Positions 15,885 to 64,000 of a stretch of 64,000 nucleotides of DNA are shown here, in pieces. The first letter of the stretch is position 1. Every line of letters begins with the position of its first letter. The notes below the pieces were generated by a model. That model saw only the letters and a program-made list of their open reading frames with translations. It was not told where the DNA came from and searched no databases. The stretch is from positions 159,745 to 223,744 of IMG/VR virus record IMGVR_UViG_3300028591_000080; one strand, written 5' to 3'. The position numbers were made by a program, and so were the translations under genes. The stretch is from a virus. Taxonomy: Duplodnaviria; Heunggongvirae; Uroviricota; Caudoviricetes.

Positions 15885-15900
15885 ATAATATAGTGTAAGT
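15885..15900 (+). promoter_or_regulatory. plus-strand extended -10-like element (tttgTATAATat)
   Basis: Read directly; about 200 nt upstream of the plus-strand terminator at 16095-16131. Confidence 0.3.
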
Positions 15901-16500: not shown

Positions 16501-16514
16501 ACTCGGATTTTTTC

Positions 16515-21913: not shown

Positions 21914-22181
21914 TCTATATTTCTCCTTAAATTATTTTTATCTCAAATAATGGATTTATTATTTTTTCTATACTACTATTTCCTAAATATCTTATTGGAT
22001 AATCAATAGCTCTTTTAAGCATATAGTGAGAGATAGAAATCCTTGATAAATTATTATTAGCATCTATATTATTATACACATTTTTTGCTCTTGGATCTTC
22101 TTTTACAACGAAAATTATATCACAATCTGCAGTCTCTAATTTAGATGTATCTTGATCTAAGCTATTGATACGAAAACTAGA

Positions 22182-22922
22182 TTTAACTCTTAAATAATTT
22201 TCACCATTTTTAGAAGGTTCTATTGAATAATATCATTGAGTTGTAAAATATTCATAATCTAGTTTCTTTTTCTTTCCGTTCTTAGTTGTTATTATTTCTA
22301 GTCCATGTATAAAATTATTTATTAATACATTTGATTTATATGCTGCGATCATAAAAATATCGTTTGTCATATCTGCATTTATAGAACAAGAGGCTTCCGA
22401 AATAGAACTTAATTTTCCATCTAAAACATCAAAAAATAATTGACGAACATCTTTACTATCTGACCTATCATTCCAAAGTCTAACAGGATTTTTAAACTTT
22501 ATTATTTTTAATTTATCTAAATTTTTTATTGCAGTAATATATTTATTAGAGTTCTTATTCATAGTATAATTTTTCTCTATATTACTTGTAACACTTTTAT
22601 AAACATCATTTCCTAATTTTTCAAGATCTCAAATTCTTCATCTTGAGTTAGGGCTTTGAACATGGCAAATATAACTTGAAACAATTTCATTCATATCTCT
22701 AGCAGCTTGCATACATGGAAGATATACTTTTTCATAGTAGTCCATATTACAAGTATTATAAAAAGTAACTAAAGAATAAAAGATAATTCTTAAAACCATT
22801 TCACTACCTTTATTAGGAATTCTAGATAGTTTTTTATATCCATTTGCTCAGTTACTAAGGTCTGTTACTAATGATACACTACGGTTTCCATCATTTGGAA
22901 GTCTAATTTGTATAACAGCCAT
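22182..22922 (-). CDS. hypothetical protein, about 246 aa, with 4 in-frame TGA codons
   Basis: Extends track ORF 22233..22562 upstream to an ATG with AGGAG RBS and downstream through its TGA to a TAA; Trp-plausible contexts (LSNWANGY, NSRWRIWDLEK). Confidence 0.5.
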
Positions 22923-22999
22923 TTTTAACTCCTTTAAGATTTTTAAACTTTTTATATATTTTAAATACTTTACAAAGTTTAAATATTTTAAATACTTTT

Positions 23000-23480
23000 A
23001 TTTTTTTACTAATTTTCAACCTAAGTCTGTGTAGAACTTAATTTTATCTATAAAAACTTCTCTAGTTTTACCGTCACGTTCTAATAAGACTCAGTTGCTA
23101 GGATCATTTAATCTTTTCATTCTAGCTTTTTCTGGATCTTTATCATTTAAGTATTCTCTTAATTCTTTAGCTTCAAAGTCTCTTCTATAAGTTAATTTAG
23201 AATCGTTTTCTCTACCACCATAAGATTGATTATAACCAACTAAAGGATTACGTGAATCGAATTTTTTAATTCAATATTGTTCTCTTTCATCTAATTGTTC
23301 TTGAGATGAGCATCTTTCTATTAATTCTACTATGAAGTTTTCTCTTCCATACTTTAACATAGCAGCTTGAATTAATGTTCCAGAACCTTTATATTTTTTA
23401 GTAAACTTTGCTCTAGCATGTTGACCAATATAAATTTTCTTATTTATTAGGTTTGTAGTTTTATAAATATAACCTCACAT
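23000..23480 (-). CDS. GIY-YIG homing endonuclease, about 160 aa, with 4 in-frame TGA codons
   Basis: GYIYKTTNLINKKIYIGQ matches the GIY-YIG motif; the conserved Trp of the ExxxWI block (EQYWIKKF, compare I-TevI ENFWIKEL) is encoded by TGA; GGAGAG RBS. Confidence 0.6.
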
Positions 23481-23489
23481 AAAACTCTC

Positions 23490-23774
23490 CTAAGATTTTA
23501 TTCATGTTCTTTCATCATCAGCTTCTTCATAATCATAATCAGGATCGCGCCTAGGAGCGTTTTGTTCTTTAGGTGTATAAATTAATTCATTCTTTGTTTC
23601 GGACAAATAGGCGCCGTCTATATAAATAAGTTGATGAAATCTATTACGACTTAATCTTCATCTAATATTATTAAAAGCTTTTTGAGGAGAGTCTGCAGTC
23701 GTGCCAACGTTTACTCAAGCTATTTCTCTATCATCTTTATCAAAAACAGGTCCATTGTATGTATAAGCACTCAT
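23490..23774 (-). CDS. hypothetical protein, about 94 aa, with 3 in-frame TGA codons
   Basis: ATG with RBS; reading through TGA gives EIAWVNVG, NIRWRLS, ERTWIKS; ends at TAG. Confidence 0.45.
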
Positions 23775-35213: not shown

Positions 35214-35660
35214 TTAATTTTCTTCATTTGCTTTTACCTCCACAAATATCTTAGAAATAACTTCCTTATGTAATTTGATATTTATATCATGCTTGCCGAA
35301 TGTTTTAATATTATCCATCATGATTTGCTTAGACTCAAGTCCTGGAACTATTTTAATTAATTCTGGCATTAAGTCTTTCTTAGTCACAGCTTTATTAGCT
35401 GAACCATCTGGCATTGGCTTTCTATAGAATGTAAAAACCTTACCTTTTAATTGATCATCTTGCTCCCAACACATTTGTAAGAAATCATTAGCTTCATCTT
35501 GTGCTCTATCAATATCTCTTTGTCTCTTAGCAAGATTTAATTCTGTAGCAGGTTCTGCTTTACCTTGAGTGATTAAGAAATTAGCATAGCCATTTGCAAA
35601 TTCCTTTATATCTAATGCTTTACCTTTACCTTTGACATCTTGTGTTAAAATTACTTTCAT
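35214..35660 (-). CDS. hypothetical protein (148 aa)
   Basis: ORF. Confidence 0.45.
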
Positions 35661-38220: not shown

Positions 38221-39474
38221 TTAAGCCTCCTCGTTTTCTAATCTCCAGTTGATTGCATCCTTTAGATGAACTGTATATGCTGGATCTGGACATAATGTTT
38301 TACCCTTATCATCAGATACCTTTGCAACTGGCTTACCATTTACATATTGTAATTTCATAACAATATTTAATGGTCTGACAGTAGAGTCATTTGTAATGAA
38401 GGTACCAATACCCGCAGCAAATTTCATACGACCATCTACATAGTTATAGATTTCTAAACACTTATCAAAGTCATAAGAGTTAGATACTAAGAATGTTTTA
38501 GTCTTTGGATCAACACCTTCAGCTTCATAAGCCTTAACAAAGTTATCAATATGTTCGTGGTCATCGCCAGAGTCTGTTCTAACACCCATAAATTGTCTCA
38601 TGAATAATCTCTTGAATCCTCTTAAGAATAACTTAGTTGTTAATGTATCTGTTAATGCAATACCTAAGTCACCTTCAAATGTTTCTAGCCATTCTTGTAA
38701 TGCAGCTTCTACTGAATATGCTACTTGAATTCCTTTAACACCTTGGAATAGCATTGTATATTCATGAGCGAATGTTCCGATAGGAGTAACACCATATTTC
38801 ATAGCTAAATAGATATTTGAAGTACCACTAAAGATTCCAGATTCACAACCATTAGCTACGATAAAATCTTGAAGCTCTGGTAAGTTTCTACGTCTTGTAC
38901 CAAATTCTGCGATCTTACCTTTAAGTGGCTCATACTTTCCACCTTTTTCAAAACCAGCAGCCTTTGCAGCCCAACGCTTAATTCCTTCATTATAAATATT
39001 ATCATAAGTATCATTAAATAAATTCCATACATAAGATACAATTGATAAAGTATAGATTTCAAATTGAGATACAATATATACTGGACCTTCAGCTTCGATA
39101 TGTAAATCTCCATTTTCATCTAATTCAAATCTAGTTAAATATCTTAAATCTAATGTAAGGTGTCTTAATAATTCTAATGCACCTTTATGTTTTCTTAAGT
39201 GACGAATATTCTTTAAGTAATCAAGCTCAGCATCTGTCCAGTGTAATGTTGCTAAGTGTTCAAACTGTCTCTTTATTTCTCTGAACATTTCTGGAGTGAA
39301 CTTTGCATCCTTTGTTCTATTAACAAAGATATACTTTGTGATATCATTTGCATGATGTTCTAATTGAGGAATAAACATATATACTTTATAAGCATCCTCT
39401 TCAGATAAATAATGGATAGCATAACCATCTTTGTAATTAATAGGGCACTTTAACCCAGCTTCTGTAATTTTCAT
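38221..39474 (-). CDS. pncB: nicotinate phosphoribosyltransferase (PncB)
   Basis: Collinear with E. coli PncB: EFGTRRR, GTSN, TPIGTFAHEY, LGIALTD, RTDSGD, KPLNIVMKL, NGKPVAKVSDDKGKTLC. Confidence 0.85.
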   Translation of the reverse strand: MKITEAGLKCPINYKDGYAIHYLSEEDAYKVYMFIPQLEHHANDITKYIFVNRTKDAKFTPEMFREIKRQFEHLATLHWTDAELDYLKNIRHLRKHKGALELLRHLTLDLRYLTRFELDENGDLHIEAEGPVYIVSQFEIYTLSIVSYVWNLFNDTYDNIYNEGIKRWAAKAAGFEKGGKYEPLKGKIAEFGTRRRNLPELQDFIVANGCESGIFSGTSNIYLAMKYGVTPIGTFAHEYTMLFQGVKGIQVAYSVEAALQEWLETFEGDLGIALTDTLTTKLFLRGFKRLFMRQFMGVRTDSGDDHEHIDNFVKAYEAEGVDPKTKTFLVSNSYDFDKCLEIYNYVDGRMKFAAGIGTFITNDSTVRPLNIVMKLQYVNGKPVAKVSDDKGKTLCPDPAYTVHLKDAINWRLENEEA

Positions 39475-39564
39475 ATTTTAATTCTCCTTAATTATTTATT
39501 TAATATAGTCATCTTGACTATTATATTATACAATAAAATTTAGGAAATTTTATTCTTAATTTCC

Positions 39565-40080
39565 TTAAATCTTAATTAATTCTTGAACATTGCCTTTTAA
39601 ATTAAATATTATATAATTCTCATTGTCCCAGCAATTAGTAATATGGACAATCGAATCCCAGTCTGCTTCGCTTGGATTAGGAAATTCCATTCTATGCCAA
39701 TCTTTAATTAATTTATCTTCAGGCATTGTTCTATATCTATTTTTATTACCTTCTAAACATTTTTCGAGTGGAGCTGTGACCCAAAGTAAATGATGCTTGA
39801 AAGTTGGAAACCATTCAATTAATTGCCTACGTTGAGCAACAGTTAATGCATTAGTAGTTAATAATACATCATGGTCTTCCAATTCTACTTCATGTAGAAC
39901 TTTAAATAATAAATGCCAAACCTCAAAACTATTTTTATGGATTCGCTCATCACCATTTATTAATTTATAAAAATCATCAACGTCATAAAAAACTATATTA
40001 GGATTTTTACCGATTATTCTTTTACTTAATACAGTTTTTCCACCACCTGATATTCCACATACTAAATAGAAATTAGCCAT
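39565..40080 (-). CDS. P-loop nucleotide/nucleoside kinase-like protein
   Basis: Walker A GISGGGKT at the N-terminus; 171 aa; substrate unknown (nicotinamide-riboside or polynucleotide kinase are options). Confidence 0.45.
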   Translation of the reverse strand: MANFYLVCGISGGGKTVLSKRIIGKNPNIVFYDVDDFYKLINGDERIHKNSFEVWHLLFKVLHEVELEDHDVLLTTNALTVAQRRQLIEWFPTFKHHLLWVTAPLEKCLEGNKNRYRTMPEDKLIKDWHRMEFPNPSEADWDSIVHITNCWDNENYIIFNLKGNVQELIKI

Positions 40081-40505
40081 TATAACACCTCAAAATAGTT
40101 TAAAAACTTAGTTATATCTAAATAATATTCATGACCTTCTTTTATATCCTCATCAGAATATTTTAAAACTTTAATTGCATTATCAGAAAGTCTTGCATCA
40201 AAATTTTTATGAATCCAATCATATACATAGGTATTTGCATTATTCCAAATATAAACTAATTGCTTTGGAAGGCCATACTTTTTAAATAGTTCAGTCACTA
40301 AATATTTCATAGTCAATCTTCCATAACCTTGATGCTGATAATTCTTATTAGCATACCATTGAGAGATTGTCCACTTATTATTTGTGTCAACGCTTATTGT
40401 GCACTTACAAATATATTCATTTAAAAATTCTTCTGTAAGTAAACTTTCATAAACAAAAGTTAACTTAGAATTATTTATTAATTTGTAAGTTAACACAATA
40501 ACCAC
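40080..40505 (-). CDS. GNAT-family N-acetyltransferase
   Basis: QHQGYGRL acetyl-CoA-binding motif. Confidence 0.5.
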   Translation of the reverse strand: MVIVLTYKLINNSKLTFVYESLLTEEFLNEYICKCTISVDTNNKWTISQWYANKNYQHQGYGRLTMKYLVTELFKKYGLPKQLVYIWNNANTYVYDWIHKNFDARLSDNAIKVLKYSDEDIKEGHEYYLDITKFLNYFEVL

Positions 40506-41225
40506 CTACTTTAATCTATACACTTTACTAGGTCTCTTAGAAAATTCTGTACTTTCTAATCCATCAATAACTTCTAATCGATCACCATATCTTTTCAAGA
40601 TGTCTCTTCTAAAATTAGCTAAGCCGATTTTCTTATTTAAAATAGCTTCATATACTAATTTTAATTCATATAATGTAAATGATTTTTTTGATTTTAAAAA
40701 TTCAAAAGCAATATCTGTATAATCTAATTTTCCTTGTAATCTTTTTACTGTATCTTCAATGATTTGTTTATGATCAAAAGCCATAGAACAATTAAATGTA
40801 AATGGACATACCCATCCACTATTAGTTTCAGCTTTAGATTCTTCTGGTAAATAACACATAGCATTTACTGGTAGGATAGAATAATAAACTACTGATATAA
40901 CTCTTGTTCTTGGATCTCTATCTACTGCACCATAAGTATATAATTGTTCAATATGAATTTTATCTGGATCTAAATTTGGATAAGTTATTTTATCTTTTAA
41001 TTTAAATCTAACATTATCCTCTAAAGAAAGATTAGGCTGAACAAATCCTCCAGGAATTTGTAGCATGTCTTTAAATGGATAATCTTTTCTTTTAGTTACT
41101 AAAACTTCTAATTTATAAGAATTACCTAATTGATGCATACTTAAGATTACAACGTCTGTTGCAATAGATGGTCTATCCTTAAATTCATTAACATTATAAT
41201 CTTTTAAAAAGTCTTGTTCAGTCAT
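40506..41225 (-). CDS. Nudix-fold protein with C-terminal winged helix, NrtR-like (ADP-ribose-responsive regulator family)
   Basis: Nudix-like N-domain (GGFV), C-terminal blocks MAFDHKQII, FTLYELKLVYEAIL, NFRRDI that I recall as NrtR signatures. Confidence 0.45.
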   Translation of the reverse strand: MTEQDFLKDYNVNEFKDRPSIATDVVILSMHQLGNSYKLEVLVTKRKDYPFKDMLQIPGGFVQPNLSLEDNVRFKLKDKITYPNLDPDKIHIEQLYTYGAVDRDPRTRVISVVYYSILPVNAMCYLPEESKAETNSGWVCPFTFNCSMAFDHKQIIEDTVKRLQGKLDYTDIAFEFLKSKKSFTLYELKLVYEAILNKKIGLANFRRDILKRYGDRLEVIDGLESTEFSKRPSKVYRLK

Positions 41226-41235
41226 AACCTAACTC

Positions 41236-42375
41236 CTAACCTACTATACTTAAAATACTTAAATAACCTAACAATCCTGAAGCTGTTAAATAGATTTGAT
41301 TATTTTTAATTAAAGAATTTAGTTCGTCTAAAGAATAAACTTTAATCTTAATATCTTCTGTTGCTTCTAAATGTTGTTTACCGATTGAAGATAGTTTTAC
41401 AACAGCCATATAGTTTGCTTCATCACACATACCAGCACACATTGATAAAGGATAGTTTTGAAGTAATGTAATCTTTTCAACCTTACCACCAACTTCTTCA
41501 TAAACTTCTCTTTCAATAGCTTTATTAACATCTTCATTATTTTCAATTAATCCAGCAACGAATGAATTTACATATCTTCCTAAAGCACTACGGAATTCTT
41601 CAATCATAACAACTTTAATTTCCATAGTCTCTGGATCTACATAATAAGTAAATGCTTCAATAGCTGTTGGCTTAACCATATCATGATTGATTGCTAAATC
41701 CTTCATATTATTTCTTGATACAAAGAAATAATCTCTAGGCTGATTATTAGTCATATAGTGAGCCGTATAGAACTTTAAAAATTTCTTATCTAAATTTAAA
41801 TCTACAGATAATAATGTTTGATTTTCTGATTTAACAATAGGTTTAATTTTTAAAGTTTTTATCCAATTAAATGCTCTAATAATTGTATCAGCATGCTTTT
41901 CTGGATTTGAATTAGTTTCAACAAAGTCTTGACCTTTCATAGCTAACTTAGATTGAATAACTACATCTTGTTCTCTACTATAACCTTGTTCTACACTAAC
42001 AGTAATTCTATTCATATAATCATTTGGAAATCTTACTTCCATCTTTGCTAAATTTCTTCCTAATTCATACATACAGATAGGTTGAACGGATTTAGGACTA
42101 TTTGCAAAATACATTGAGAAAATATCCATTTGTTCTAACATATTAAATTCCCAAGTTATTTGTTCATTAGAAGCATTAGGATCATGAATAGGGAAGTTTT
42201 TACGTCTTGGATTGAATAATACTAATCCAGTTAAATCAACGTCAACGTTCTCTAAATAATTAATTACTTCATCTTGCCATTCACCACAATCTGTGATACC
42301 TCCAGCTAAGAAACAAGTAATTTCTCCTGGCTTCTTTTCATATTTTTCTACAGCTGTAATTACTTTTATATTCAT
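41236..42375 (-). CDS. Nudix hydrolase (ADP-ribose pyrophosphatase-like) fused to an N-terminal Rossmann-like (nucleoside deoxyribosyltransferase/LOG-like) domain
   Basis: Complete Nudix box AGLIENNEDVNKAIEREVYEEVGG; N-terminal FLAGGITDCGEW resembles YLAGP-type Rossmann folds. Confidence 0.55.
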   Translation of the reverse strand: MNIKVITAVEKYEKKPGEITCFLAGGITDCGEWQDEVINYLENVDVDLTGLVLFNPRRKNFPIHDPNASNEQITWEFNMLEQMDIFSMYFANSPKSVQPICMYELGRNLAKMEVRFPNDYMNRITVSVEQGYSREQDVVIQSKLAMKGQDFVETNSNPEKHADTIIRAFNWIKTLKIKPIVKSENQTLLSVDLNLDKKFLKFYTAHYMTNNQPRDYFFVSRNNMKDLAINHDMVKPTAIEAFTYYVDPETMEIKVVMIEEFRSALGRYVNSFVAGLIENNEDVNKAIEREVYEEVGGKVEKITLLQNYPLSMCAGMCDEANYMAVVKLSSIGKQHLEATEDIKIKVYSLDELNSLIKNNQIYLTASGLLGYLSILSIVG

Positions 42376-42376
42376 A

Positions 42377-43360
42377 TTAATTTTTACTCCTCTTTAATTC
42401 TGATATTTCTAAAGCTTGTTCAACAACTAAAGCTTTAAGTCTTTCAACTTCATGTTCTAATGCATGGTACTTTTCTGCTGGAACGTCTGCCTCTTTTACT
42501 GCACTTATCTTCATACAAAGACTACTATCATCAACTTTATCTGCAATGCGCTTAGAATCTCCAATTGATGTTAATGAATCACTACCAGCAATTTGAACAA
42601 GACTGCCATAAGGAAGACCTTCATCTAAAAGATAATTTAAACCTTTTTTAATTTCACAATCTGATTTATTAAATAGTTCTGGAACTATTCCATGCTTACT
42701 CATCCACTCTCTAGCAGCTTTAGGACCAGCTAAAATCTTTCGATCTAATTTAAATCTAGGTTCATAATCTGATGGTGGTAATGCTTCTCTCCAGCAAGTA
42801 TTTAAAATTCTAGCTATCTCAACACCACTTGAATTTGATTTAGATTCTACTAAAATAAAATCACGTTTATTTTTAAGTCTATCTTCTTCAAGATTTAATA
42901 ATTCAGCTTCTCTAGCTGGAACCATAATAAATCTCTTAGACCAATCATCATATTTCTTTTTATTTAAATATTCAAAGTATACACATAAATAATTCTTTTC
43001 AATAGGATCAATTACCTCAATACCAGTACGAGCTATATACTGATAGTTTTGTTTTTCAATATACCATAAACCACCTTGAGCTCTTGGATTTAACCACTTA
43101 CTTCCATCATCATTATAACAACAGAACTTACGAGTAATGTGGATTCTAATACTATTTGATACTTTATCATTAAATGTATATTTATAGCTTCCATTTAGTT
43201 CAGAAATACCATAAGTATCATCTTCGAATATCTCAGCTTCAAAAATAGTTGATGGATCTAAATTAGGAAAGTATGTTAAAAAACCTCTAATTCTTTTTGC
43301 TTTAATTAAAATTGGAAATCTAAATTTCATATTGTTCACCTCATATATAATAATATACAA
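42377..43360 (-). CDS. hypothetical protein (327 aa)
   Basis: ORF inside the NAD island; no motif recognised. Confidence 0.5.
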   Translation of the reverse strand: MYIIIYEVNNMKFRFPILIKAKRIRGFLTYFPNLDPSTIFEAEIFEDDTYGISELNGSYKYTFNDKVSNSIRIHITRKFCCYNDDGSKWLNPRAQGGLWYIEKQNYQYIARTGIEVIDPIEKNYLCVYFEYLNKKKYDDWSKRFIMVPAREAELLNLEEDRLKNKRDFILVESKSNSSGVEIARILNTCWREALPPSDYEPRFKLDRKILAGPKAAREWMSKHGIVPELFNKSDCEIKKGLNYLLDEGLPYGSLVQIAGSDSLTSIGDSKRIADKVDDSSLCMKISAVKEADVPAEKYHALEHEVERLKALVVEQALEISELKRSKN

Positions 43361-43368
43361 TATGACTA

Positions 43369-43851
43369 TTAATAAATCTCATTTGTTAATAAATAACTTA
43401 TTAAATAATCATAAGCCATTTGTGCTGCATACTCTCTAACTTTTTCTCTATCATCATTAAATATTTGATATTCAAATCCACCAGCTTGAGTCATATTATT
43501 ATATTTTTTAATTAATAAACTAACATAGAATTTTCCAGCTGGAGTTCCACGATTAGAACCAGGTCCAGCTACACCAGAAATTGCCACTGCGATATTAGCA
43601 CCAGTTAATTCTAAAAGACCATCACACATTTGACGTGTTGTTTGACTATTATAAGGTCCATATCTAACTAAGAAATCTGAATCAACATTTAATACTTTAG
43701 ATTTAATTTCATCTGTATAAGATGTGACAGAACCTAGATAAACAGAACTTATTCCAGGTTCTTCACAAATCTTTGCAGATAACTTTCCACCAGTTAAAGA
43801 TTCAGCTACAGCTAACTTAAGGTTATATTTTTCCAACAATTCTTTTAGCAT
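43369..43851 (-). CDS. CinA C-terminal domain protein (PncC-type NMN deamidase family)
   Basis: LAVAESLTGGKLSAKI matches the CinA_C signature. Confidence 0.6.
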   Translation of the reverse strand: MLKELLEKYNLKLAVAESLTGGKLSAKICEEPGISSVYLGSVTSYTDEIKSKVLNVDSDFLVRYGPYNSQTTRQMCDGLLELTGANIAVAISGVAGPGSNRGTPAGKFYVSLLIKKYNNMTQAGGFEYQIFNDDREKVREYAAQMAYDYLISYLLTNEIY

Positions 43852-44648
43852 TAAATCTTCACCTCTAAATCATCAGGTTCATACTTAGGCATTAGTACTA
43901 ACTTATGTAAATTAGCTCTGTGCATTCTATCAATCTTTTCTTTATGTTCTAGATTTTCAATAACACCAGTTCGAATATAAGTATCTAATTCATCATAAGT
44001 AAATCCTAACTTCTCTTCATCAGACTTACCACTCATTCCATCGCTAGGAACTTTTTCAATTAAATCCTTTGGTAAACCTAATTCATAACCTAATTCTTTA
44101 ACTTCATGAACAGTTAAATTTGCAAGTGGTGAAAAGTCTCCTGCACTATCTCCATACTTAGTTGAATAACCAACCCAGTCCTCAGATAAATTACAAGTAT
44201 TGGCTACTCTTGCATTACCAAGAATTGCTGCAACTCCGTATAAAGTTGTCATACGAATTCTTGCTGGAGTATTAGTTTCATATACATCATTAAACTTTGT
44301 TGCATAATTAGTTATATAACTTGAGCAAGTTCTATTTATTCTATGTCTAGACTTAAATCCTTCAAATATTGATTGTCTTAACATTAAAGTAGCATAACCA
44401 ATATTTATACAAGTATAATCAATACCTAAATGCTTAACTAATTCTAATGATTTATCAATATCCTTTTGTTCACCATCTGGCATTAATACGCCAAATACTT
44501 TATCCTTACCAAGTGCTTCCACACATAAAGCAGCACAAACTGAACTATCTTTGCCACCACTAATTCCAATAACAACTGTACAATCACCTACAGTCTTTCT
44601 AACCCATTCAACTAAATCTTCTTTACATTTCTTTGCATTAAATTCCAT
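43851..44648 (-). CDS. nadE: NH3-dependent NAD+ synthetase
   Basis: PP-loop GISGGKDSSV; 265 aa, NadE-sized. Confidence 0.8.
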   Translation of the reverse strand: MEFNAKKCKEDLVEWVRKTVGDCTVVIGISGGKDSSVCAALCVEALGKDKVFGVLMPDGEQKDIDKSLELVKHLGIDYTCINIGYATLMLRQSIFEGFKSRHRINRTCSSYITNYATKFNDVYETNTPARIRMTTLYGVAAILGNARVANTCNLSEDWVGYSTKYGDSAGDFSPLANLTVHEVKELGYELGLPKDLIEKVPSDGMSGKSDEEKLGFTYDELDTYIRTGVIENLEHKEKIDRMHRANLHKLVLMPKYEPDDLEVKI

Positions 44649-46624: not shown

Positions 46625-47435
46625 CTTAATTTCCAAGTTTACTTAGTAATGAATCTAAAACTATTTCTTTAATTAATGGCATTAGTTCCATCATATAGTC
46701 ATCTTCTATTTTATCATTAGCTCATTTAATTTCTAAGTGTCCACCACATTCTTTTGGACATGGTGCATCATGCATTATAATAGCTACAATTACTTTAACC
46801 ATTGTCATATCTTTAAATTTAAGAAATGAGCGTGGTGTTTTTTCATATAATTCTATTTCATCAATGTCGCCATTTGAACATCCGATAGTAAGAGCTACTT
46901 CATCTTTATTTCTTGCTGCATAGATAGCATTTTCTACAGCACCTGGATGAGCTTGAATTGGATAAGTTAATCCTAAAATTCGAGTAATTTCTGCTGCGTA
47001 TTTTAGTCAACATTCTCCATGACCATCATCAGCTCTATAATAATCTTCTATCTCTTTTGTTGGAAATACTTTTTCACCGTGTTCTTCATCTGCTCAAATG
47101 TTTAGACGTTTATCATTTAACATTTCAACATCTACTAAATAATGACAATATTCATGTGCAAAAGTATTTTCAAATAATTCTTCCAATCCGTTCTTTAATA
47201 CATATTGACTAACTTCTATTTGAATCATAGCCTCATGATGTAATACGTCTCTACCAAATAAAGTACTACCTAAAGTATTGGTTGAATCATATCCTTTAAG
47301 TGATACTCCTAATAAACTAGGATTTGGTTTTCAATCTGGATGAGCTTTAGATATTTTAAATAAAACTTGATTAGCAATAAACATTGCTAAATCTTCTTCC
47401 ATATAATCATTTTTATCTTCAAATAAATTAACCAT
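46625..47435 (-). CDS. HExxH zinc-metallopeptidase-like protein, about 269 aa, with 4 in-frame TGA codons
   Basis: ATG with AAGGAG RBS 9 nt upstream; FAHEYCHYLVD HExxH motif; all four Trp positions (HPDWKPN, LNIWADE, GECWLKY, EIKWAND) are TGA; ends at TAA; invisible to the standard-code ORF track. Confidence 0.55.
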
Positions 47436-47475
47436 AAGTAGAAACTCCTTACAGTATAATTTAGCAATCTAAATA

Positions 47476-48765
47476 TTAACTTGTATGTTCGACATTATAT
47501 CTTGTAGTTTGATCACTTGCAAATTTAATTAAATCTTCCTTATTATTTTTTAAGATTCCACTATAAACTTCAATTAATGTCATCTCTAATGCAGTTCTAA
47601 TTTGTTTTCCTTTATAACCTAAAGCAATCATATCATTACCATCAACTGCTAATTGATTTAAAGAATAACAACCGCTTTCAAATACTAAATTAATAACTTC
47701 TGTTGAATTAAAATAATATCTGTTAATAGCGTCAATAAATACAAAAGCATCTTGAATTTCAAGTAATTTTCTTACTAGCCATTCAGCATCTTTATTAGAA
47801 TAACCATATGTATCAACTAATCTATGACCTAAAGCTCCAACACTGTCTGAGTCATCAAGATTAACCTTTCTAACTTCTCTACTTAATACTTTAATTAATT
47901 TTGTATCTTTTGTTGAAAATTTTAAACGAGTTAAAATAGCTTCAGTTTGTTCAGGAGTTAAGTATGAACAAATTCCAATAAAGTTATCAACATAATGATC
48001 AGTCACAAGCTTAAATAATTGCTTATTTAAGTACTTAAATTCAGGAATAATATGATAAATAATAGCACCAGGCATAAATCCTTGCATTAAATCACCAACA
48101 GTCTCATAATCAAAGATTCTAATAATCTCATCATGGATTCTTTCTGCAGAAATACTATCTAATAAATCTTCTTGGAAAAACATTGCGTACATAGTTCCAT
48201 TCTCAATATGGAAATTATACTTGCATGCAAATCTAAGACCACGCAAGATTCTTAGAGCATCCTCTTTAAATCTTTCTTTAGGGTCTCCAACTGCACGAAC
48301 AATACCTTCTTTTAGGTCCTTTAATCCACCAAATGGGTCAATTACAGTATCACCGCTGTTATATGCCATCGCGTTGATAGTAAAGTCACGTCTAGCTAAA
48401 TCTTTTACAATATCTTTAGTAAATTCAACAGATTCAGGGTGTCTATTATCTTTATATTCGCCATCAATACGATATGTAGTGATTTCAATATTCTCTTCAT
48501 TGTATCTAACTGTTACAGTTCCGTGCTTTTCTCCATTGTTATTAATGATAGGATAATCTTTAAATACTTCTTTAATTTCATCAGGAGTCGCATTAGTAGT
48601 TAAGTCAATATCTTTAATTGAATGACCTAATAAAAGGTCCCTTACCGCTCCGCCGACAATATAAGCTTCATATCCAGCAGTTTCAAGTTTATTAAAAACA
48701 AATTGTACAATATCTTTTTGCTTAGCTGTAAGTAAATCAAATAAATTATTTGACACTTTAATCAC
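47476..48765 (-). CDS. cca: tRNA nucleotidyltransferase (CCA-adding enzyme)
   Basis: Pol-beta-type head YIVGGAVRDLLLG ... DIDL ... RDFTINAMAY; 429 aa. Confidence 0.75.
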   Translation of the reverse strand: MIKVSNNLFDLLTAKQKDIVQFVFNKLETAGYEAYIVGGAVRDLLLGHSIKDIDLTTNATPDEIKEVFKDYPIINNNGEKHGTVTVRYNEENIEITTYRIDGEYKDNRHPESVEFTKDIVKDLARRDFTINAMAYNSGDTVIDPFGGLKDLKEGIVRAVGDPKERFKEDALRILRGLRFACKYNFHIENGTMYAMFFQEDLLDSISAERIHDEIIRIFDYETVGDLMQGFMPGAIIYHIIPEFKYLNKQLFKLVTDHYVDNFIGICSYLTPEQTEAILTRLKFSTKDTKLIKVLSREVRKVNLDDSDSVGALGHRLVDTYGYSNKDAEWLVRKLLEIQDAFVFIDAINRYYFNSTEVINLVFESGCYSLNQLAVDGNDMIALGYKGKQIRTALEMTLIEVYSGILKNNKEDLIKFASDQTTRYNVEHTS

Positions 48766-49546
48766 CTTCTTTTAAATAATATTTTTTAAAGCGTAATAAA
48801 CTTTCATTTGTAAAAGTTATTTGTCCTGCTTTATATAACTCAACTATAAAAGGACGAGTTAACTGTTTAAAATCTTTGTTTGAAAATAAAACATATTCTA
48901 GATTATTATTTGAACAGTAGGTTTCAGCCGCTTGCTTTTTTAATAAAACAACCTCTGAACTTAACTCTCTAAAATCTTTAATCTCATATAAATATTTATT
49001 ATCGACCAAAAAGTCTGGTCTATATTGATGGATAGTTCCACTGGTATCACTATAATAAATGGTCATAGTTTCTGCTGATTTAATTGTATGATTTTCATTT
49101 AACATTTTATAGATAAATGATAATTCAACAAGAGACCTAAATAGATATCCAGAATACCAACCAGCATAACCACGACCATTAACTGGGTTATCTTCAGTAA
49201 ATTTATGTGGATTATTTATTCCTTTTGCAAAATAATGATGATTAGCTTTTCAATCATCACTCTTAAAACGTTCTGTCAAAGACTTACCTAATTGTTTCTT
49301 ATTATATTCTGCCCAAGTATAAGTACGTATACCTTTTTGATAATCTTCATGTTGACGACAGCCTCTACATAGGTCTCTATCATCTCTTTTTTTAAAATTT
49401 AATTGTTGTGAATGATAATTTATCTTATAAATTTTACCGCATACATCACATCTAACTTCGATAATATCACCAGTACTAAATCCTACCCTTCCTTTTTTAA
49501 ATCCATGTGCACCTGCTTGTAATATTCTTGGTTTACTAAGTATCAT
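48758..49546 (-). CDS. zinc-finger plus PD-(D/E)xK nuclease-domain protein (homing-endonuclease-like), about 262 aa, with one in-frame TGA
   Basis: Track ORFs 49250..49546 and 48758..49105 share a frame, separated only by TGA; N-terminal CDVCGK...CRGCRQ, C-terminal YRPDFLVDNKYLYEIKDF (PD...EIK). Confidence 0.55.
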
Positions 49547-49706
49547 AAATAATCTCCTTATTTTTTATTCATTTAATTTAGCAAACAAAACGCAGCCACC
49601 AACAAAATAGGTTACTCTATATAAATAATACAATAATTCCTAATATAAGTGTAACACTTGTTATAACTAATTTAACAATATCATTAATTAATTTTAATTT
49701 CATAAG

Positions 49707-49907
49707 CTAATCCTCCAGACCTTCTTTTGCACCTAAGCAGCATAGACCAATAAATAAGATAGAAAGCACATGTATACTATATAAAAATAACCAATACCAA
49801 CTTCCTAATACAATACTTAAAACAATAGGAAGACCAGCAAAACTAATACTAATTGCAAATACTAAAAACATTATTAATAGCGCACATATTTTTTTAAGTG
49901 TTTTCAT
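49707..49907 (-). CDS. small two-TM membrane protein (66 aa)
   Basis: Two hydrophobic helices. Confidence 0.45.
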   Translation of the reverse strand: MKTLKKICALLIMFLVFAISISFAGLPIVLSIVLGSWYWLFLYSIHVLSILFIGLCCLGAKEGLED

Positions 49908-49919
49908 TACTTAATCTCC

Positions 49920-50213
49920 TTATAATTTAAAAATTTGTTCTTCGTCTATGCTCATACTTTTTTCTGTCTTAGTATAAACATCATATAAATCCGAACCAGC
50001 GTCTTCATCGTAATATTCAACTCTAATAGAATGATATTCTTTGCTTAATTTATATTTTGAAGTTCCTATTGATTTAACTTTTGAACTCTTTTTTGCATCT
50101 TCAAGTATCTTGTTAAATTCTGCATCACGTTTTTCAACTGAAGTAAAATAATAAGTATGTGTATAATCTGGATAACTATAATAGACTTCAATAATTGGAA
50201 CGATTTTAGTCAT
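49920..50213 (-). CDS. hypothetical protein (97 aa)
   Basis: ORF. Confidence 0.45.
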   Translation of the reverse strand: MTKIVPIIEVYYSYPDYTHTYYFTSVEKRDAEFNKILEDAKKSSKVKSIGTSKYKLSKEYHSIRVEYYDEDAGSDLYDVYTKTEKSMSIDEEQIFKL

Positions 50214-50589
50214 CGTTATTCTCCCATTTTTTCCAATAGATCTTCTCTAGTTCACCGAGTCTTGAATAAACTTGATAAAGATTATCCATATCATCATATA
50301 ATTCTGGATCATCATTATCTTTTAATATATCTAAATTGAAGTCTTCAGTTAATCTTTTTTTACTTAAAATCTTTTCATATTGACTTAAGGTAATTAAAGC
50401 TTCCTTAAGTTTACTTAGATTCCAATTACGTCCAACAGTTGTTAAATGTGTAAAAGCACCTTTACCGTTATCATTTGGATTCATATAAACGGTACTTCTA
50501 TCTCTAACGACTATTTCTTGTTCAGATAAATAGTCAATAAATTCAATTAATGTCATTTCTCTTTCTGGCATATTAATTATTCTCCTCAA
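50206..50589 (-). CDS. hypothetical protein (127 aa)
   Basis: ORF. Confidence 0.45.
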   Translation of the reverse strand: MRRIINMPEREMTLIEFIDYLSEQEIVVRDRSTVYMNPNDNGKGAFTHLTTVGRNWNLSKLKEALITLSQYEKILSKKRLTEDFNLDILKDNDDPELYDDMDNLYQVYSRLGELEKIYWKKWENNDD

Positions 50590-58567: not shown

Positions 58568-59509
58568 TTATACAATAAAATCTTCTTTTTTATAGCCATT
58601 TTTATAAAACCAATCTAAATATTTCTGATAGTCTGACTCAGTTAAAATTTTAACATTATTATTTATTGCACACCAGTATTTCGCTTCTACTAGACCAGAA
58701 TTTTCTGCATCGAATGGATTATACCAAACTCCATGCTCATTAATAAAACATTTGCCTTTTATCTCAACCAACTGGCCTTTAATACTAAAGTCTGGGTAAT
58801 ATTCATGAGTGACTCCATCATAATAATAAATCAATTTTATAGGTTCACGTATAATTTCTATATTATTTTTTATACAATATAAATATAAACATAACTCAGG
58901 AAAAGAATCAAATGATATATTTTTATAATTAAATTTATTTGATAGTCCGTGTCGTACACCATAGCGTAATTCCATAGTATCAAAAGCTTTAGTTTTAAAA
59001 ATATCTAATTCAAATGGATGAGATACGCCATATTTAGTTTGCATGCCACCCTCCCTAAATTCAGCCAACTTAAGTGGATTATCAACACCATATTTTTTAA
59101 TACAAGTATTTTTATATGATTCTTTATAAGTATCCGTTTTAGAATAATGTGTTACACCAAAATGTTCTAAATAAGTTTTTTCTTTTGTAAGTTTGACTAT
59201 CTCTGCTTTTGATGGGTTATCTACACCATACTTTTTAATATTTGATTCTTTTATTTTTTGTTTTATAGTATCAGCTGCAAAAGCGTTAGTTACTCCATAT
59301 TTTTTTAAACAAGTCTGTATATAAGCTTGCTTATACAATATTTTATTTTCTTCATTAGTATGTCTTGAAATATTATACTTTTGTAAAACTCTTAAGATTC
59401 TTGGGATGAAATGACAATTAAAATGAGTACCAGTATTGCTATCAGTATGAGTTTTATAATATTCGATTATTTCTAATTCTTCTTGCTCAGTAAATTCTTT
59501 TCTAGCCAT
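58568..59509 (-). CDS. tandem-repeat (KKYGVxNP x6) protein with C-terminal PD-(D/E)xK nuclease-like domain (homing-endonuclease-like)
   Basis: Six roughly 30-aa modules (CLKKYGVTNAF, NIKKYGVDNPS, LEHFGVTHYS, CIKKYGVDNPL, QTKYGVSHPF, ELRYGVRHGL); C-terminal HEYYPDF...LVEIKG resembles the nuclease domain of 48758..49546. Confidence 0.5.
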   Translation of the reverse strand: MARKEFTEQEELEIIEYYKTHTDSNTGTHFNCHFIPRILRVLQKYNISRHTNEENKILYKQAYIQTCLKKYGVTNAFAADTIKQKIKESNIKKYGVDNPSKAEIVKLTKEKTYLEHFGVTHYSKTDTYKESYKNTCIKKYGVDNPLKLAEFREGGMQTKYGVSHPFELDIFKTKAFDTMELRYGVRHGLSNKFNYKNISFDSFPELCLYLYCIKNNIEIIREPIKLIYYYDGVTHEYYPDFSIKGQLVEIKGKCFINEHGVWYNPFDAENSGLVEAKYWCAINNNVKILTESDYQKYLDWFYKNGYKKEDFIV

Positions 59510-63126: not shown

Positions 63127-64000
63127 TTATTCAATAAACTTTGTGTTTTCACCAACTTGATCATTAGACTCTATCTTAATAGTTTCTTTACCAGTTAACT
63201 TAAGTTTTAAATAACCTTTTCTAACATCAAATGGCATAAATACACCAGAGTACTCTTCACATTCAAGAGTCTCTTGATCAATCAGTGTGAACTTATTACC
63301 ATGGTTGTCTTTAATAACAGTTCCAACAGGAAGAGTATTAATATAAGCTTTTCTTCCTACATAGTTAATCTTATAATCAAAATTAGGATATAATTTAAAA
63401 AACTTATTTGCTAATTCTGGCAAGTGCTTTCTAAGACACTCAGCTAAATATGGAAGGGTTTCAGTTTGATAACTTCTTATTGGCTTACGATCAAAGATTG
63501 TTAATGGTGTTTCAACAAATAATCTATATAATAAACCATCTTTACTTAAATCTTCTAAGTCAGTCTTTAAAATAAAACTTGGATCACAGCCACCAAAAGG
63601 AACATGAAGTGCAACTTCTAAACCAGAAGGTAATTTGAAGAAATTGAAATCCCAATTTCTATCGTCAGGTCTGCGTTCTCTTATCTCTATAGTATGAAGA
63701 TTTATATAAACATAATCACCCATAACACCAAGTAAATTATGAGATGCAGGTCTCTCTAATTTATCATAAGCTGGATCTTCTTTATATTTCCACTTAAAGT
63801 CAGAATATTTACTAGCATACTTAGTAAAACCTTTTACTTTGCTCAAATGTCCATAAATACATTTTGTACTTGCAAAACCACTTGTTACTTTAAGACAGGT
63901 ATTATTCTTATAAAAAGAACATGAATCACAGTGGTCACAAGAGATTATTTCAGCTCTTAATGGACAACCACGATCTCCGCTTCCATAAAGTGAAACATTA
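63127..64000 (-). CDS. hypothetical Cys-rich protein, N-terminus beyond the window edge (partial)
   Basis: The frame stays open upstream of the track's Met to position 64000 (…CPLRAEIISCDHCDSC…IYGHLSKVKGFTKYAS…). Confidence 0.45.
   Translation of the reverse strand, partial: NVSLYGSGDRGCPLRAEIISCDHCDSCSFYKNNTCLKVTSGFASTKCIYGHLSKVKGFTKYASKYSDFKWKYKEDPAYDKLERPASHNLLGVMGDYVYINLHTIEIRERRPDDRNWDFNFFKLPSGLEVALHVPFGGCDPSFILKTDLEDLSKDGLLYRLFVETPLTIFDRKPIRSYQTETLPYLAECLRKHLPELANKFFKLYPNFDYKINYVGRKAYINTLPVGTVIKDNHGNKFTLIDQETLECEEYSGVFMPFDVRKGYLKLKLTGKETIKIESNDQVGENTKFIE

What the first reader, a model, noticed from the sequence alone, without database searches (positions are those of the whole stretch)
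48758..49546. Zinc-finger ORF and PD-(D/E)xK ORF joined by one TGA into a homing-endonuclease-like protein
Track ORFs 49250..49546 (CDVCGK...CRGCRQ zinc-finger-like) and 48758..49105 (YRPDFLVDNKYLYEIKDF, a PD...EIK nuclease motif) are in the same frame with only a TGA between them. The joined 262-aa protein has the DNA-binding-finger-plus-nuclease architecture typical of freestanding homing endonucleases. A related nuclease domain sits at the C-terminus of 58568..59509.
Basis: partly seen in the sequence, partly recalled or inferred. Interest (0 to 1): 0.65.

Follow-up and report, generated by a model that had tools for sequence, protein, structure and literature searches.

The report
Intact phage nuclease gene; TGA encodes tryptophan
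The two ORFs are one intact 262-residue zinc-ribbon plus TnsA-like endonuclease gene of a large animal-gut phage that reads TGA as tryptophan, so the "stop" is an ordinary sense codon; the gene looks like a free-standing homing endonuclease, and both features are of known kinds.

Summary
Minus-strand ORFs 49250..49546 and 48758..49105 share a frame and are separated by one TGA (49250..49252).

They are one gene, because this phage reads TGA as Trp (genetic code 4):
- Codon 99 is TGA in the window and its 89% relatives, but TGG in uninterrupted 55-57% homologues.
- Codon 130 is TGG in the window and TGA in the 89% relatives.
- dN/dS across the TGA is 0.11-0.13, including the 48 start-less codons between the TGA and the ATG at 49105.
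- No ORF in the window needs TGA as a stop.
- Five other genes carry 1-4 in-frame TGAs. Where homologues could be checked, these sit at conserved Trp positions (GIY-YIG, SprT-like, 17490..18608).
- JGI/IMG already holds the 262-aa product, on a 230-kb contig.

Homing-endonuclease behaviour is inferred, not shown:
- A syntenic relative (L094) lacks the gene.
- A sharply bounded 88% identity block covers the gene plus the first third of the neighbouring CCA-enzyme gene.
- Some phage contigs carry two copies of the family.

The verdict is a new member of known kinds, of modest interest.

The parts
48758..49546 (-). One gene: 262 codons plus TAA stop (48758..48760). Encodes a zinc-ribbon / NUMOD3-like linker / TnsA-like PD-(D/E)xK endonuclease.
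   Evidence: The exact 262-aa product, with W at codon 99, is already in JGI/IMG on a 230,252-bp contig.
49250..49252 (-). Codon 99, TGA, read as Trp.
   Evidence: TGA in the window and in L001, L002, L091, L092 and L093. TGG in the uninterrupted homologues L003 and L004. W at this column in the four homologues aligned there (P0001-P0003, P0005).
49157..49159 (-). Codon 130, TGG in the window. The same codon is TGA in the 89%-identical relatives.
   Evidence: A TGG/TGA swap at one Trp position within one gene lineage.
49554..49559 (-). Shine-Dalgarno AAGGAG, 7 nt upstream of the ATG at 49546.
   Evidence: The internal ATG at 49105 has no such sequence.
49349..49465 (-). Four-cysteine zinc ribbon (residues 28-66; C33, C36, C60, C63).
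   Evidence: C60 and C63 invariant, C33 and C36 at least 90% conserved in 63 family members. The model shows a beta-hairpin (residues 28-43) followed by helices, pLDDT 80-96.
49163..49249 (-). Linker with a NUMOD3-like GxxNP motif (residues 100-128, KGINNPHKF). Contains no start codon.
   Evidence: G109 invariant and N112 nearly invariant. It aligns to the NUMOD3 (PF07460) region of P0004 and P0005. Low pLDDT of 54-58 fits a flexible linker. dN/dS 0.10.
48881..49162 (-). TnsA-like PD-(D/E)xK nuclease core (residues 129-222). Candidate catalytic residues: E159 (49070..49072), D178 (49013..49015), E188 (48983..48985), K190 (48977..48979).
48240..49616 (-). Sharply bounded block, 85-95% identical to relative L001. 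It covers the gene's upstream region, the whole endonuclease gene, and the first ~175 codons of the CCA-enzyme gene.
   Evidence: blastn: 87.8% over 1384 nt, against 70-76% for the other shared segments. 60-nt sliding identity falls to about 40-50% on both sides. CCA head domain 90.7% identical; the tail has only weak local matches (26-38%).
47476..48765 (-). Downstream neighbour: tRNA nucleotidyltransferase (CCA-adding enzyme). The likely true start is GTG at 48756, one base after the endonuclease stop, with its SD (GAAGGTGA) inside the endonuclease 3' end.
   Evidence: PHROG 2244, E 1e-58. The L001 gene begins one base after the endonuclease stop, and window residue 4 aligns to L001 residue 1.
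49617..49703 (-). 28-codon hydrophobic mini-ORF that marks the left edge of the insertion. In L094 its stop is followed within about 10 nt by the SD and ATG of the CCA gene, with no endonuclease between.
58568..59509 (-). Second endonuclease-like gene in the window: DUF7487 repeats at the N-terminus and a related TnsA-like nuclease domain at the C-terminus (about residues 192-257, 58739..58936).
46626..47435 (-). SprT-like metalloprotease gene (HExxH) with 4 in-frame TGA and no TGG. Supporting evidence that TGA is Trp.
   Evidence: The TGAs align to W. At three of the four positions the W is in TGG-encoded homologues (P0164 at all three, P0165 at one; P0165 has F at the other two); the fourth has W only in close relatives whose codon was not checked.
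21927..23774 (-). Three adjacent genes with 11 in-frame TGA and 1 TGG, including a GIY-YIG endonuclease at 22998..23480. Supporting evidence that TGA is Trp.
   Evidence: The TGA at 23271 aligns to the conserved W of I-TevI (ERENFWIKE).
17490..18608 (-). Gene with one in-frame TGA (17757) followed by a conserved 88-residue extension. Supporting evidence that TGA is Trp.

Best explanation
The interval 48758..49546 (-) is a single intact gene. The phage that carries it is a jumbo phage of at least 230 kb from ruminant and pig gut samples, and it decodes TGA as tryptophan (genetic code 4). Codon 99 is therefore an ordinary Trp codon, and the product is a 262-residue protein.

Domain order, N to C:
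- a four-cysteine zinc ribbon;
- a flexible NUMOD3-like linker;
- a TnsA-like PD-(D/E)xK nuclease core with E159, D178 and E188-x-K190;
- a short C-terminal helical region.

Shown here:
- It is one reading frame under purifying selection.
- TGA and TGG interchange at Trp positions.
- The window has no TGA stops.
- The predicted fold is TnsA-like.

Inferred:
- The protein is a free-standing homing endonuclease. It sits in the intergenic slot upstream of the CCA-adding-enzyme gene. It probably cuts the endonuclease-less allele at or near the 5' part of that gene. It would then be copied in by recombinational repair together with the adjacent CCA head-domain sequence (co-conversion).
- Full-length synthesis needs UGA suppression, most likely by a tRNA-Trp(UCA) encoded elsewhere in the phage genome. 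A code-4 host would serve equally well.
For: TGA is Trp, and this is one gene.
- Codon 99 is TGA in the window, L001, L002, L091, L092 and L093, but TGG in the uninterrupted 55-57% homologues L003 and L004. Codon 130 is TGG in the window and TGA in the 89% relatives.
- dN/dS between window and L001 is 0.13 overall, 0.10 for codons 100-147 and 0.11 for everything after the TGA.
- Under code 11 only 4 of 94 ORFs of at least 80 aa end in TGA, and all four read through into long conserved extensions. A code-4 gene model gives 100 genes and 89% coding.
- In-frame TGAs in other genes fall at conserved Trp positions. One is the I-TevI W in the GIY-YIG gene. Three of the four SprT-like sites match TGG-encoded W in homologues. 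One is a W followed by a conserved extension in 17490..18608.
- Relative L001 shows the same pattern: none of 25 genes ends in TGA, and five carry in-frame TGA.
- JGI/IMG already holds the exact 262-aa product on a 230-kb contig, whereas ENA and Logan called 98-aa and 115-aa fragments.
- The ATG at 49546 has a strong SD; the ATG at 49105 has none. Conserved nuclease residues 124-143 lie upstream of that ATG.
- Partly TGA-to-Trp recoded large gut phages are described in the literature (bioRxiv 10.1101/2021.08.26.457843).

Nuclease identity.
- PF08722 scores above its gathering threshold.
- PHROG 15427 matches residues 31-229.
- The AF2 model of the 89% homologue has mean pLDDT 86.
- Top viral matches are NUMOD3 / TnsA-N phage endonucleases.

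Homing-endonuclease behaviour.
- The syntenic relative L094 has the mini-ORF followed directly by CCA, SprT-like, o182 and o131, with no endonuclease.
- The 88% identity block starts exactly at that insertion edge (about 49616) and ends inside the CCA gene (about 48240).
- The endonuclease is far more similar between relatives than its neighbour: 88.6% against 48.5%, and 55-57% against 33-34%.
- Five IMG/VR phage contigs carry two copies of the family.
- One pig-gut strain (L092) carries a disrupted copy.
Against: - No suppressor tRNA, and no tRNA at all, was found in the 64-kb window or in about 17 kb of flanking sequence from the same phage. The decoding agent is therefore unidentified.
- Only about 7% of Trp codons in the window are TGA (17 against 216 TGG), concentrated in six genes.
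- There is no proteomic evidence for the full-length product.
- The structure was predicted for P0001 (89% identical), not for the window protein itself.
- Cleavage activity, the target site and homing are all untested.
- The endonuclease-CCA adjacency is kept in three different genomic backbones. This could mean a functional link rather than site-specific mobility.
- The L094 comparison rests on one contig, which has a scaffold gap inside its CCA gene.
- NUMOD3 (PF07460) itself does not score on the window protein.
Confidence: 0.82

Rival explanations
1. Pseudogene: a TGG-to-TGA nonsense mutation has inactivated a formerly intact endonuclease gene.
For: TGG to TGA is a single transition. Homing endonuclease genes often decay, and one strain (L092) carries a disrupted copy.
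Against: dN/dS after the TGA is 0.11, with no frameshift or TAA/TAG in 163 codons, at dS about 0.55 from L001. The relatives have acquired a second TGA at another Trp codon and are still conserved. The same 'lesion' type occurs 16 more times in five other genes and is never TAA or TAG.
Confidence: 0.03
2. Two separately translated proteins: a 98-aa zinc-ribbon protein and a 115-aa nuclease starting at ATG 49105.
For: Code-11 pipelines (ENA, Logan) call exactly these two ORFs. In a cell with active RF2 and no suppressor, the 98-aa fragment would be made.
Against: There is no SD before ATG 49105. The 48 start-less codons between TGA and ATG are under purifying selection (omega 0.10). A 115-aa product would lack invariant nuclease-domain residues G124-L142. 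Homologues are contiguous.
Confidence: 0.04
3. Gene-specific programmed UGA readthrough or selenocysteine insertion in an otherwise standard-code genome.
For: A single in-frame UGA within a gene is the classic signature of either.
Against: TGA never serves as an unambiguous stop in about 100 genes. Other genes carry 3-4 TGAs each at Trp positions. The aligned residue is Trp (TGG), not Cys or Sec. Rfam finds no SECIS or other element in the window.
Confidence: 0.02
4. The code is the host's, not the phage's: the phage infects a code-4 bacterium (a Mycoplasma or Spiroplasma-like Mollicute), so no phage-driven code switch or suppressor tRNA is involved.
For: GC content is 28.8%. The nearest cultured relatives of the DNA ligase are phages of Bacillota, the lineage that gave rise to Mollicutes. 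No suppressor tRNA was found in the sequence available.
Against: 93% of Trp codons are TGG, whereas code-4 Mollicutes strongly prefer TGA (general knowledge). Only about 6% of genes in this window carry in-frame TGA. For comparison, phages matched to a TGA-recoded host (code 25, TGA = Gly) average 90% of genes with in-frame TGA, and recoded phage clades on standard-code hosts average 26-71% (10.1101/2021.08.26.457843). Only about 81 kb of a genome of at least 230 kb was searched for tRNAs.
Confidence: 0.2
5. It is not a selfish homing endonuclease but a housekeeping nuclease. It could be a T4 gp4-like head-completion nuclease, or a partner of the tRNA-repair genes next to it (CCA enzyme, RNA ligases).
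Against: gp4 is about 150 aa, has no zinc ribbon or NUMOD3 region, and sits among structural genes. This gene lies among nucleotide-metabolism genes and is absent from the syntenic L094 locus. The catalytic residues are the E/D/ExK set typical of DNA nucleases. A second family-related nuclease domain in the same window and two-copy contigs elsewhere argue for a mobile family.
Confidence: 0.15

Closest known systems
TGA-to-Trp (code 4) recoded large gut phages, such as the Jade and Agate clades (Borges et al., bioRxiv 10.1101/2021.08.26.457843)
   Same: Animal-gut origin and a large genome (contigs of 230-245 kb). In-frame TGA at Trp positions in only a subset of genes. TGA abandoned as a stop codon. 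The suppressor tRNA is not always detectable.
   Different: In the published clades the recoded codons concentrate in structural and lysis genes. In this window they sit in an early/metabolic region, in endonuclease-like and accessory genes. Clade membership was not tested, because the window holds no terminase or capsid gene.
TnsA N-terminal catalytic domain (Pfam PF08722; PDB 1t0f, 1f1z)
   Different: No neighbouring gene tested is TnsB-like, and no transposon ends were looked for. The protein carries an N-terminal zinc ribbon and a NUMOD3-like linker instead. Identity to TnsA is 16-19%.
Phage NUMOD3 / TnsA-N endonucleases (PHROG 15427; e.g. Bacillus phage Moonbeam 'endonuclease', Campylobacter phage CP20 TnsA-N protein, uncultured-phage 'Nuclease associated modular domain 3' proteins)
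   Same: Same overall architecture and fold. PHROG 15427 E 6e-12 over residues 31-229. BFVD top hit E 1e-14. About 4000 related protein clusters.
   Different: At most 37% identity to anything outside its own small clade. As far as my searches show, the family has no biochemically characterised member.
Free-standing homing endonucleases of T4-like phages (Seg and Mob proteins; e.g. SegB in the T4 tRNA region, PMC2330249)
   Same: An intergenic gene with its own translation signals. Nuclease plus modular DNA-binding region. Presence/absence between relatives. A tract of elevated identity running into the neighbouring gene, as expected from co-conversion.
   Different: A different catalytic fold (Seg is GIY-YIG, Mob is HNH). 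No cleavage or homing data exist for this protein.
T4 gp4 head-completion nuclease (PHROG 218)
   Same: A homologous TnsA-like nuclease core.
   Different: gp4 is about 150 aa with no DNA-binding extension and sits in the structural module. This gene is dispensable at its locus in a relative.
I-Bth0305I / EDxHD (Vsr-like) homing endonucleases (PMC3239194)
   Different: A different catalytic motif (EDxHD against E...PD...ExK). I-Bth0305I is encoded in an intron. Vsr-like structures match less well than TnsA.

Membership tests
Genetic code 4 (TGA = Trp) phage genome | In-frame TGA at positions where homologues have TGG-encoded Trp. | tested here: met
   Codons 99 and 130 of this gene. SprT-like gene against TGG-encoded P0164 and P0165. 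GIY-YIG gene against the I-TevI W.
Genetic code 4 (TGA = Trp) phage genome | TGA is not used as a terminator. | tested here: met
   All four TGA-ended ORFs of at least 80 aa read through into conserved sequence. Real stops are TAA 76 and TAG 24. One short case, 23502, is ambiguous. L001 has 0 of 25 genes ending in TGA.
Genetic code 4 (TGA = Trp) phage genome | A UGA-decoding tRNA (anticodon UCA), encoded by the phage or the host. | tested here: inconclusive
   ARAGORN finds no tRNA in the window, L001-L004 or L085-L089. Only about 81 kb of a genome of at least 230 kb was available.
Alternatively coded phage on a standard-code host (Borges model) | The host uses the standard code, and the phage switches code during infection. 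| not testable with these tools
   The host is unknown. The indirect indication is 93% TGG usage and recoding in only 6% of genes.
TnsA-like endonuclease N-terminal domain (PF08722) | Profile score above the Pfam gathering threshold. | tested here: met
   31.2 bits against a cutoff of 26.5, E 3.4e-7, residues 158-222.
TnsA-like endonuclease N-terminal domain (PF08722) | PD-(D/E)xK fold with conserved acidic and Lys catalytic residues. | tested here: met
Tn7-type transposase TnsA | Operates with a neighbouring TnsB (DDE transposase) and TnsC inside a transposon with terminal repeats. | tested here: not met
   The downstream neighbour is the CCA enzyme; the two upstream ORFs have no TnsB-like match (one weak unknown-function PHROG hit, one no hit). 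No TnsB/TnsC family appears among the called genes of L001, L003 or L004.
Free-standing homing endonuclease | A nuclease domain fused to modular DNA-binding elements, encoded between genes rather than inside an intron or intein. | tested here: met
   Zinc ribbon plus NUMOD3-like linker plus nuclease. Intergenic position with its own SD. No intron family in Rfam.
Free-standing homing endonuclease | Presence/absence polymorphism at a fixed site among otherwise syntenic relatives. | tested here: met
   L094 has the mini-ORF followed directly by CCA. This rests on a single contig.
Free-standing homing endonuclease | Elevated similarity of the gene plus adjacent flank between diverged genomes (a co-conversion tract). 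| tested here: met
   An 88% block at 48240..49616, against at most 76% (or unalignable) elsewhere.
Free-standing homing endonuclease | Site-specific cleavage of the endonuclease-less allele, and preferential inheritance in mixed infection. | not testable with these tools
   This needs biochemistry or genetics.
NUMOD3 (PF07460) DNA-binding module | A profile match to PF07460. | tested here: not met
   No PF07460 hit at E up to 1 for the window protein. Only the distant homologues P0004 and P0005 carry it, and the GxxNP motif aligns to them. I therefore call the linker 'NUMOD3-like', not NUMOD3.
T4 gp4 head-completion nuclease (PHROG 218) | A stand-alone nuclease of about 150 aa in the head/neck gene module, essential for head-tail joining. 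| tested here: not met
   Only the core matches (residues 121-197). This protein is 262 aa with extra domains, sits among metabolism genes, and is absent from the syntenic locus in L094.

The most novel reading that the evidence does not exclude
The in-frame UGA may act as a timing gate on a selfish nuclease. Early in infection, under standard host decoding, translation would stop at codon 99 and yield only the 98-residue zinc-ribbon fragment, which is harmless and might occupy the target site. After the phage switches the cell to UGA = Trp, the full-length nuclease would be made. More broadly, in this early/metabolic region the recoded codons are concentrated in mobile and accessory genes: this gene, a GIY-YIG endonuclease with 4 TGA and 0 TGG, and a SprT-like protease with 4 TGA and 0 TGG. 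That would suggest code 4 either restrains such genes or marks a gene pool exchanged only among recoded phages.
Probability: 0.15. Interest if true: 0.6.

Novelty: new member of a known kind. Interest (0 to 1): 0.35.

Why it matters
**Annotation.** This is a concrete case where standard-code gene calling breaks real genes. ENA and Logan hold this gene as 98-aa and 115-aa fragments. They also hold 17490..18608 as truncated products, while JGI's code-4 call gives the intact proteins. Anyone annotating this phage lineage should use table 4.

**Biology.**
- It adds a sheep-rumen and pig-gut jumbo phage to the known TGA-to-Trp recoded phages.
- In the 64 kb examined here, an early/metabolic region, the recoded codons sit in homing-endonuclease-like and accessory genes. 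Late genes lie outside the window and could not be compared.
- It gives in-silico mobility evidence for a very large, biochemically uncharacterised family of phage endonucleases (zinc ribbon, NUMOD3-like linker, TnsA-like nuclease; about 4000 clusters). The evidence is an empty site, a co-conversion-like tract and a probable target next to or in the CCA-enzyme gene. The family could be tested as a new class of site-specific nucleases.

Tried and rejected
**Searches that found nothing useful**
- Megablast of 47400..50300 against 50,697 phage records gave no match. tblastn gave only distant hits.
- An exact 40-mer across the TGA was not found in IMG/VR.
- tRNA searches of the window and nine related loci found no tRNA; the only ARAGORN hit was a tmRNA in L088, outside the window.
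- Rfam found nothing in the window.
- The promoter scan of 48500..50000 was at chance level (10 found, 9.6 expected), and no terminator was found.
- A PDB sequence search with the family profile was not significant (TnsA E 0.2), so the fold claim rests on the structure comparison.
- tblastn of each nuclease protein against the window found only itself; the relation between the two needed pairwise BLASTP and hhalign.
- The TGA-rich genes do not differ clearly in GC or GC3 from the rest, so there is no compositional sign of recent foreign origin.

- P0155 was not in the contig index.
- ORF 63127..63846 was not on record.

**Readings rejected:** pseudogene, two separate ORFs, selenocysteine or local readthrough, code 25 (TGA = Gly; homologues have W or F), Tn7 transposase, and gp4 head-completion protein. 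See the rival explanations.
Full report
**1. The observation**

On the minus strand, the ORF listing gives a 98-aa ORF (49250..49546) containing CDVCGK...CRGCRQ. It also gives a 115-aa ORF (48758..49105) containing YRPDFLVDNKYLYEIKD. Translating 48758..49546 gives one frame of 262 sense codons, interrupted only by TGA at codon 99 (49250..49252) and closed by TAA. Between the TGA and the ATG at 49105 lie 48 sense codons with no possible start codon. Using the off-frame TAA plus TAG frequency inside genes of this window (about 9.1%, counts), a 163-codon open stretch after the TGA has a chance probability near 2e-7.

**2. One gene or two?**

Several lines say it is one gene.
- PHROG 15427 ('endonuclease') matches residues 31-229, straight across the TGA (E 6e-12).
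- A search of 5.8 billion proteins found contiguous homologues of 259-263 aa at 89%, 57% and 55% identity, each with Trp at the aligned position.
- Their DNA is decisive. The 55-57% homologues (L003, L004) have TGG at codon 99 in an uninterrupted ORF. The 89% relatives, from five contigs in five separate samples or assemblies (L001, L002, L091, L092, L093), have TGA at codon 99. They also have TGA at codon 130, where the window has TGG.
- Nei-Gojobori dN/dS between the window and L001 is 0.13 overall. It is 0.10 for the start-less codons 100-147 and 0.11 for everything after the TGA, at dS about 0.55.
- The ATG at 49546 is preceded by AAGGAG, whereas the ATG at 49105 has no Shine-Dalgarno sequence.
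- Starting at 49105 would remove invariant nuclease-domain residues G124-L142.

**3. Why TGA? The window as a whole**

The window is 28.8% GC, and all genes lie on one strand. Under code 11 only 4 of 94 ORFs of at least 80 aa end in TGA, and each of these reads through into a long open extension. Treating TGA as sense gives 100 genes, 89% coding, with stops TAA 76 and TAG 24. There are 17 genuine in-frame TGAs against 216 TGG.

The TGAs are concentrated in six genes:

| Gene (window, minus strand) | TGA | TGG |
|---|---|---|
| 48758..49546, this gene | 1 | 2 |
| 46626..47435, SprT-like protease | 4 | 0 |
| 23490..23774 | 3 | 0 |
| 22998..23480, GIY-YIG endonuclease | 4 | 0 |
| 21927..22922 | 4 | 1 |
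| 17490..18608 | 1 | 4 |

For the four TGA-rich genes against the rest, Fisher's exact test gives p = 1e-20.

Where homologues allow a check, the TGAs fall at Trp positions.
- The GIY-YIG TGA at 23271 aligns with the W of I-TevI ERENFWIKE.
- The four SprT-like TGAs align with W in homologues (F in one homologue at two sites, which fits Trp rather than Gly). At three of the four positions the W is TGG-encoded, in P0164 at all three and in P0165 at one.
- The TGA at 17757 is W in two relatives that keep a conserved 88-residue extension. Code-11 pipelines truncated three other relatives at exactly that codon.
- Relative L001 shows the same pattern.
- The exact 262-aa product is already in JGI/IMG on a 230,252-bp contig, while ENA and Logan hold the 98-aa and 115-aa pieces.

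The phage therefore reads TGA as Trp. Partial TGA-to-Trp recoding is established for large phages of human and animal guts (bioRxiv 10.1101/2021.08.26.457843). The sample labels point to sheep rumen and pig gut.

I found no tRNA in the window or in about 17 kb of flanks. What decodes UGA is therefore unknown. The paper reports detectable suppressors in only 35% of code-4 phages. The strong TGG preference, and the 6% of genes recoded in this window, favour a standard-code host with a phage-encoded switch. I cannot exclude a code-4 host and give that about 0.2.

**4. What the protein is**

Pfam places residues 158-222 in the TnsA-like N-terminal endonuclease family (31.2 bits against a cutoff of 26.5). 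A profile search of 1.84 billion cluster representatives found 4023 relatives, 520 of them at E no greater than 1e-30. Most are single 260-310-aa proteins spanning the whole architecture.

In 63 aligned members:
- C60 and C63 are invariant, and C33 and C36 nearly so. These form the zinc ribbon.
- G109 and N112 mark a GxxNP motif. It aligns with the NUMOD3 modules of distant members.
- G124, G126, G129, F136-R137-S138, E141, D178, E188, K190 and K203 are invariant.
- E159 is nearly invariant.

The C-terminus of 58568..59509 carries a related nuclease domain behind DUF7487 repeats.

**5. How it probably works (inference)**

The gene behaves like a free-standing homing endonuclease.
- *Empty site.* A syntenic relative, L094, has the upstream 66-aa gene, then a 28-codon mini-ORF, then the CCA-enzyme gene within about 10 nt. 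It goes on with the same downstream genes as the window (SprT-like, o182, o131). There is no endonuclease.
- *Mosaic block.* Window and L001 share a sharply bounded 85-95% identity block from about 49616 to about 48240. The start is exactly the insertion edge, and the end lies 175 codons into the CCA gene. Other shared segments are 70-76% identical or unalignable. The CCA head domain is 90.7% identical, while the rest of that protein gives only weak local matches.
- *Uneven divergence.* The endonuclease is much more similar between relatives than its neighbour.
- *Copy number.* The family occurs twice in five IMG/VR contigs.
- *Decay.* One strain, L092, carries a disrupted copy.

This is the pattern known for the Seg and Mob genes of T4-like phages. 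There, the endonuclease-less allele is cut near the insertion site, and repair copies the gene together with its flanking markers (PMC2330249). The likely target lies at the junction with, or in the 5' part of, the CCA-enzyme gene.

Cleavage, specificity and homing are all untested. The adjacency to CCA is conserved in three genomic backbones. That fits site-specific homing, but it equally fits a functional link, so I give a housekeeping role about 0.15.

The gene is not a Tn7 transposase, since no neighbouring gene tested is TnsB- or TnsC-like. It is not the T4 gp4-type head-completion protein either. The size, domains and location are wrong, and the gene is dispensable at this locus.

**6. 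Comparison with what is known, and novelty**

Both ingredients are known kinds: TGA-to-Trp recoded gut phages, and NUMOD3 / TnsA-like phage endonucleases (PHROG 15427). The phage itself has no close relative among 50,697 deposited phage genomes or in IMG/VR. Its DNA ligase is 36-40% identical to ligases of Bacillota phages.

One feature is mildly unusual. Within this early/metabolic region, the recoded codons sit in endonuclease-like and accessory genes, not in the late genes emphasised in the literature. This allows, but does not show, a reading in which UGA gates nuclease synthesis until the code switch. I give that probability about 0.15.

**7. Verdict**

The TGA is explained by window-wide code-4 decoding. 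The gene is a new member of known kinds, and I score interest at 0.35. The practical lesson is that this lineage must be annotated with translation table 4.

Noticed in passing
window 16363..16490 (minus strand), within the gene-poor gap 15609..16515: Four copies of CCGGG(A/T)TTTGGA spaced 37-42 nt apart in a locally GC-rich (45-47%) stretch. These are the only four matches in the window, against 0.09 expected. The RNA fold z-score is -4.7, and a terminator-like hairpin follows. Rfam finds nothing even at E up to 1. It could be an iteron-like protein-binding array or an undescribed RNA.
   Followed up: partly
window 35214..35660 (-): A full-length ribosomal protein bL9 homologue encoded by the phage (Pfam L9_N 2e-16, L9_C 8e-11). 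L001 has one too. It is worth noting in a phage that alters decoding.
   Followed up: no
L088 983..1356 (same phage, about 6 kb beyond the high-coordinate end of the window): A phage-encoded tmRNA (Rfam RF00023, 86 bits; ARAGORN tag AKSIFNKIANFFRGFGAQRVAALA).
   Followed up: partly
window 21927..23774 (-): Three adjacent genes that use TGA almost exclusively for Trp (11 TGA, 1 TGG). They include a GIY-YIG homing-endonuclease-like gene at 22998..23480 whose product begins M-W(TGA)-GYIYK. Under code 11 this region looks like a 1.3-kb gene-free gap.
   Followed up: partly
window 46626..47435 (-): An SprT-like zinc metalloprotease gene (HEYCH) with 4 TGA and no TGG. It is present at the same position in L094 but absent from the L001/L091 lineage, where the CCA gene is followed directly by the o182 homologue.
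   Followed up: partly
window 17490..18608 (-), TGA at 17757: A gene of unknown function read through one TGA into a conserved 88-residue extension. NCBI, ENA and Logan records hold relatives truncated at that codon, one of them on a 244,932-bp contig.
   Followed up: yes
window 38221..44648 (-): An NAD-salvage gene cluster: NAPRTase, a nucleoside deoxyribosyltransferase-like/NUDIX fusion, CinA/PncC-like and NAD synthase. The same set lies next to the endonuclease locus in L091 and L094.
   Followed up: no
window 47476..48765 (-): The CCA-enzyme gene start is probably GTG at 48756 rather than 48765. It lies one base after the endonuclease stop, with its SD (GAAGGTGA) inside the endonuclease 3' end. 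The endonuclease cassette therefore supplies the neighbour's translation signal.
   Followed up: partly
L092 923..1790 (pig-gut scaffold XIAO16-1_SAMEA3663011 scaffold_15809): A copy of the endonuclease gene with local frame disruptions in the nuclease core and a truncated C-terminus. It is either a decaying copy or an assembly error.
   Followed up: no
L094 about 2180..2360: The CCA gene of the endonuclease-less relative contains a run of N (a scaffold gap) and is called as two ORFs. The gap lies close to where the window/L001 high-identity block ends.
   Followed up: no
L085 15928..17423, L086 16471..17986, L087 16087..17603 (same phage, beyond the low-coordinate end of the window): A 1.5-kb stretch with no called gene in three independent assemblies. 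It holds no tRNA (L085-L087) and, in L085, no Rfam hit. It may be another gene broken by TGA, or non-coding DNA.
   Followed up: no
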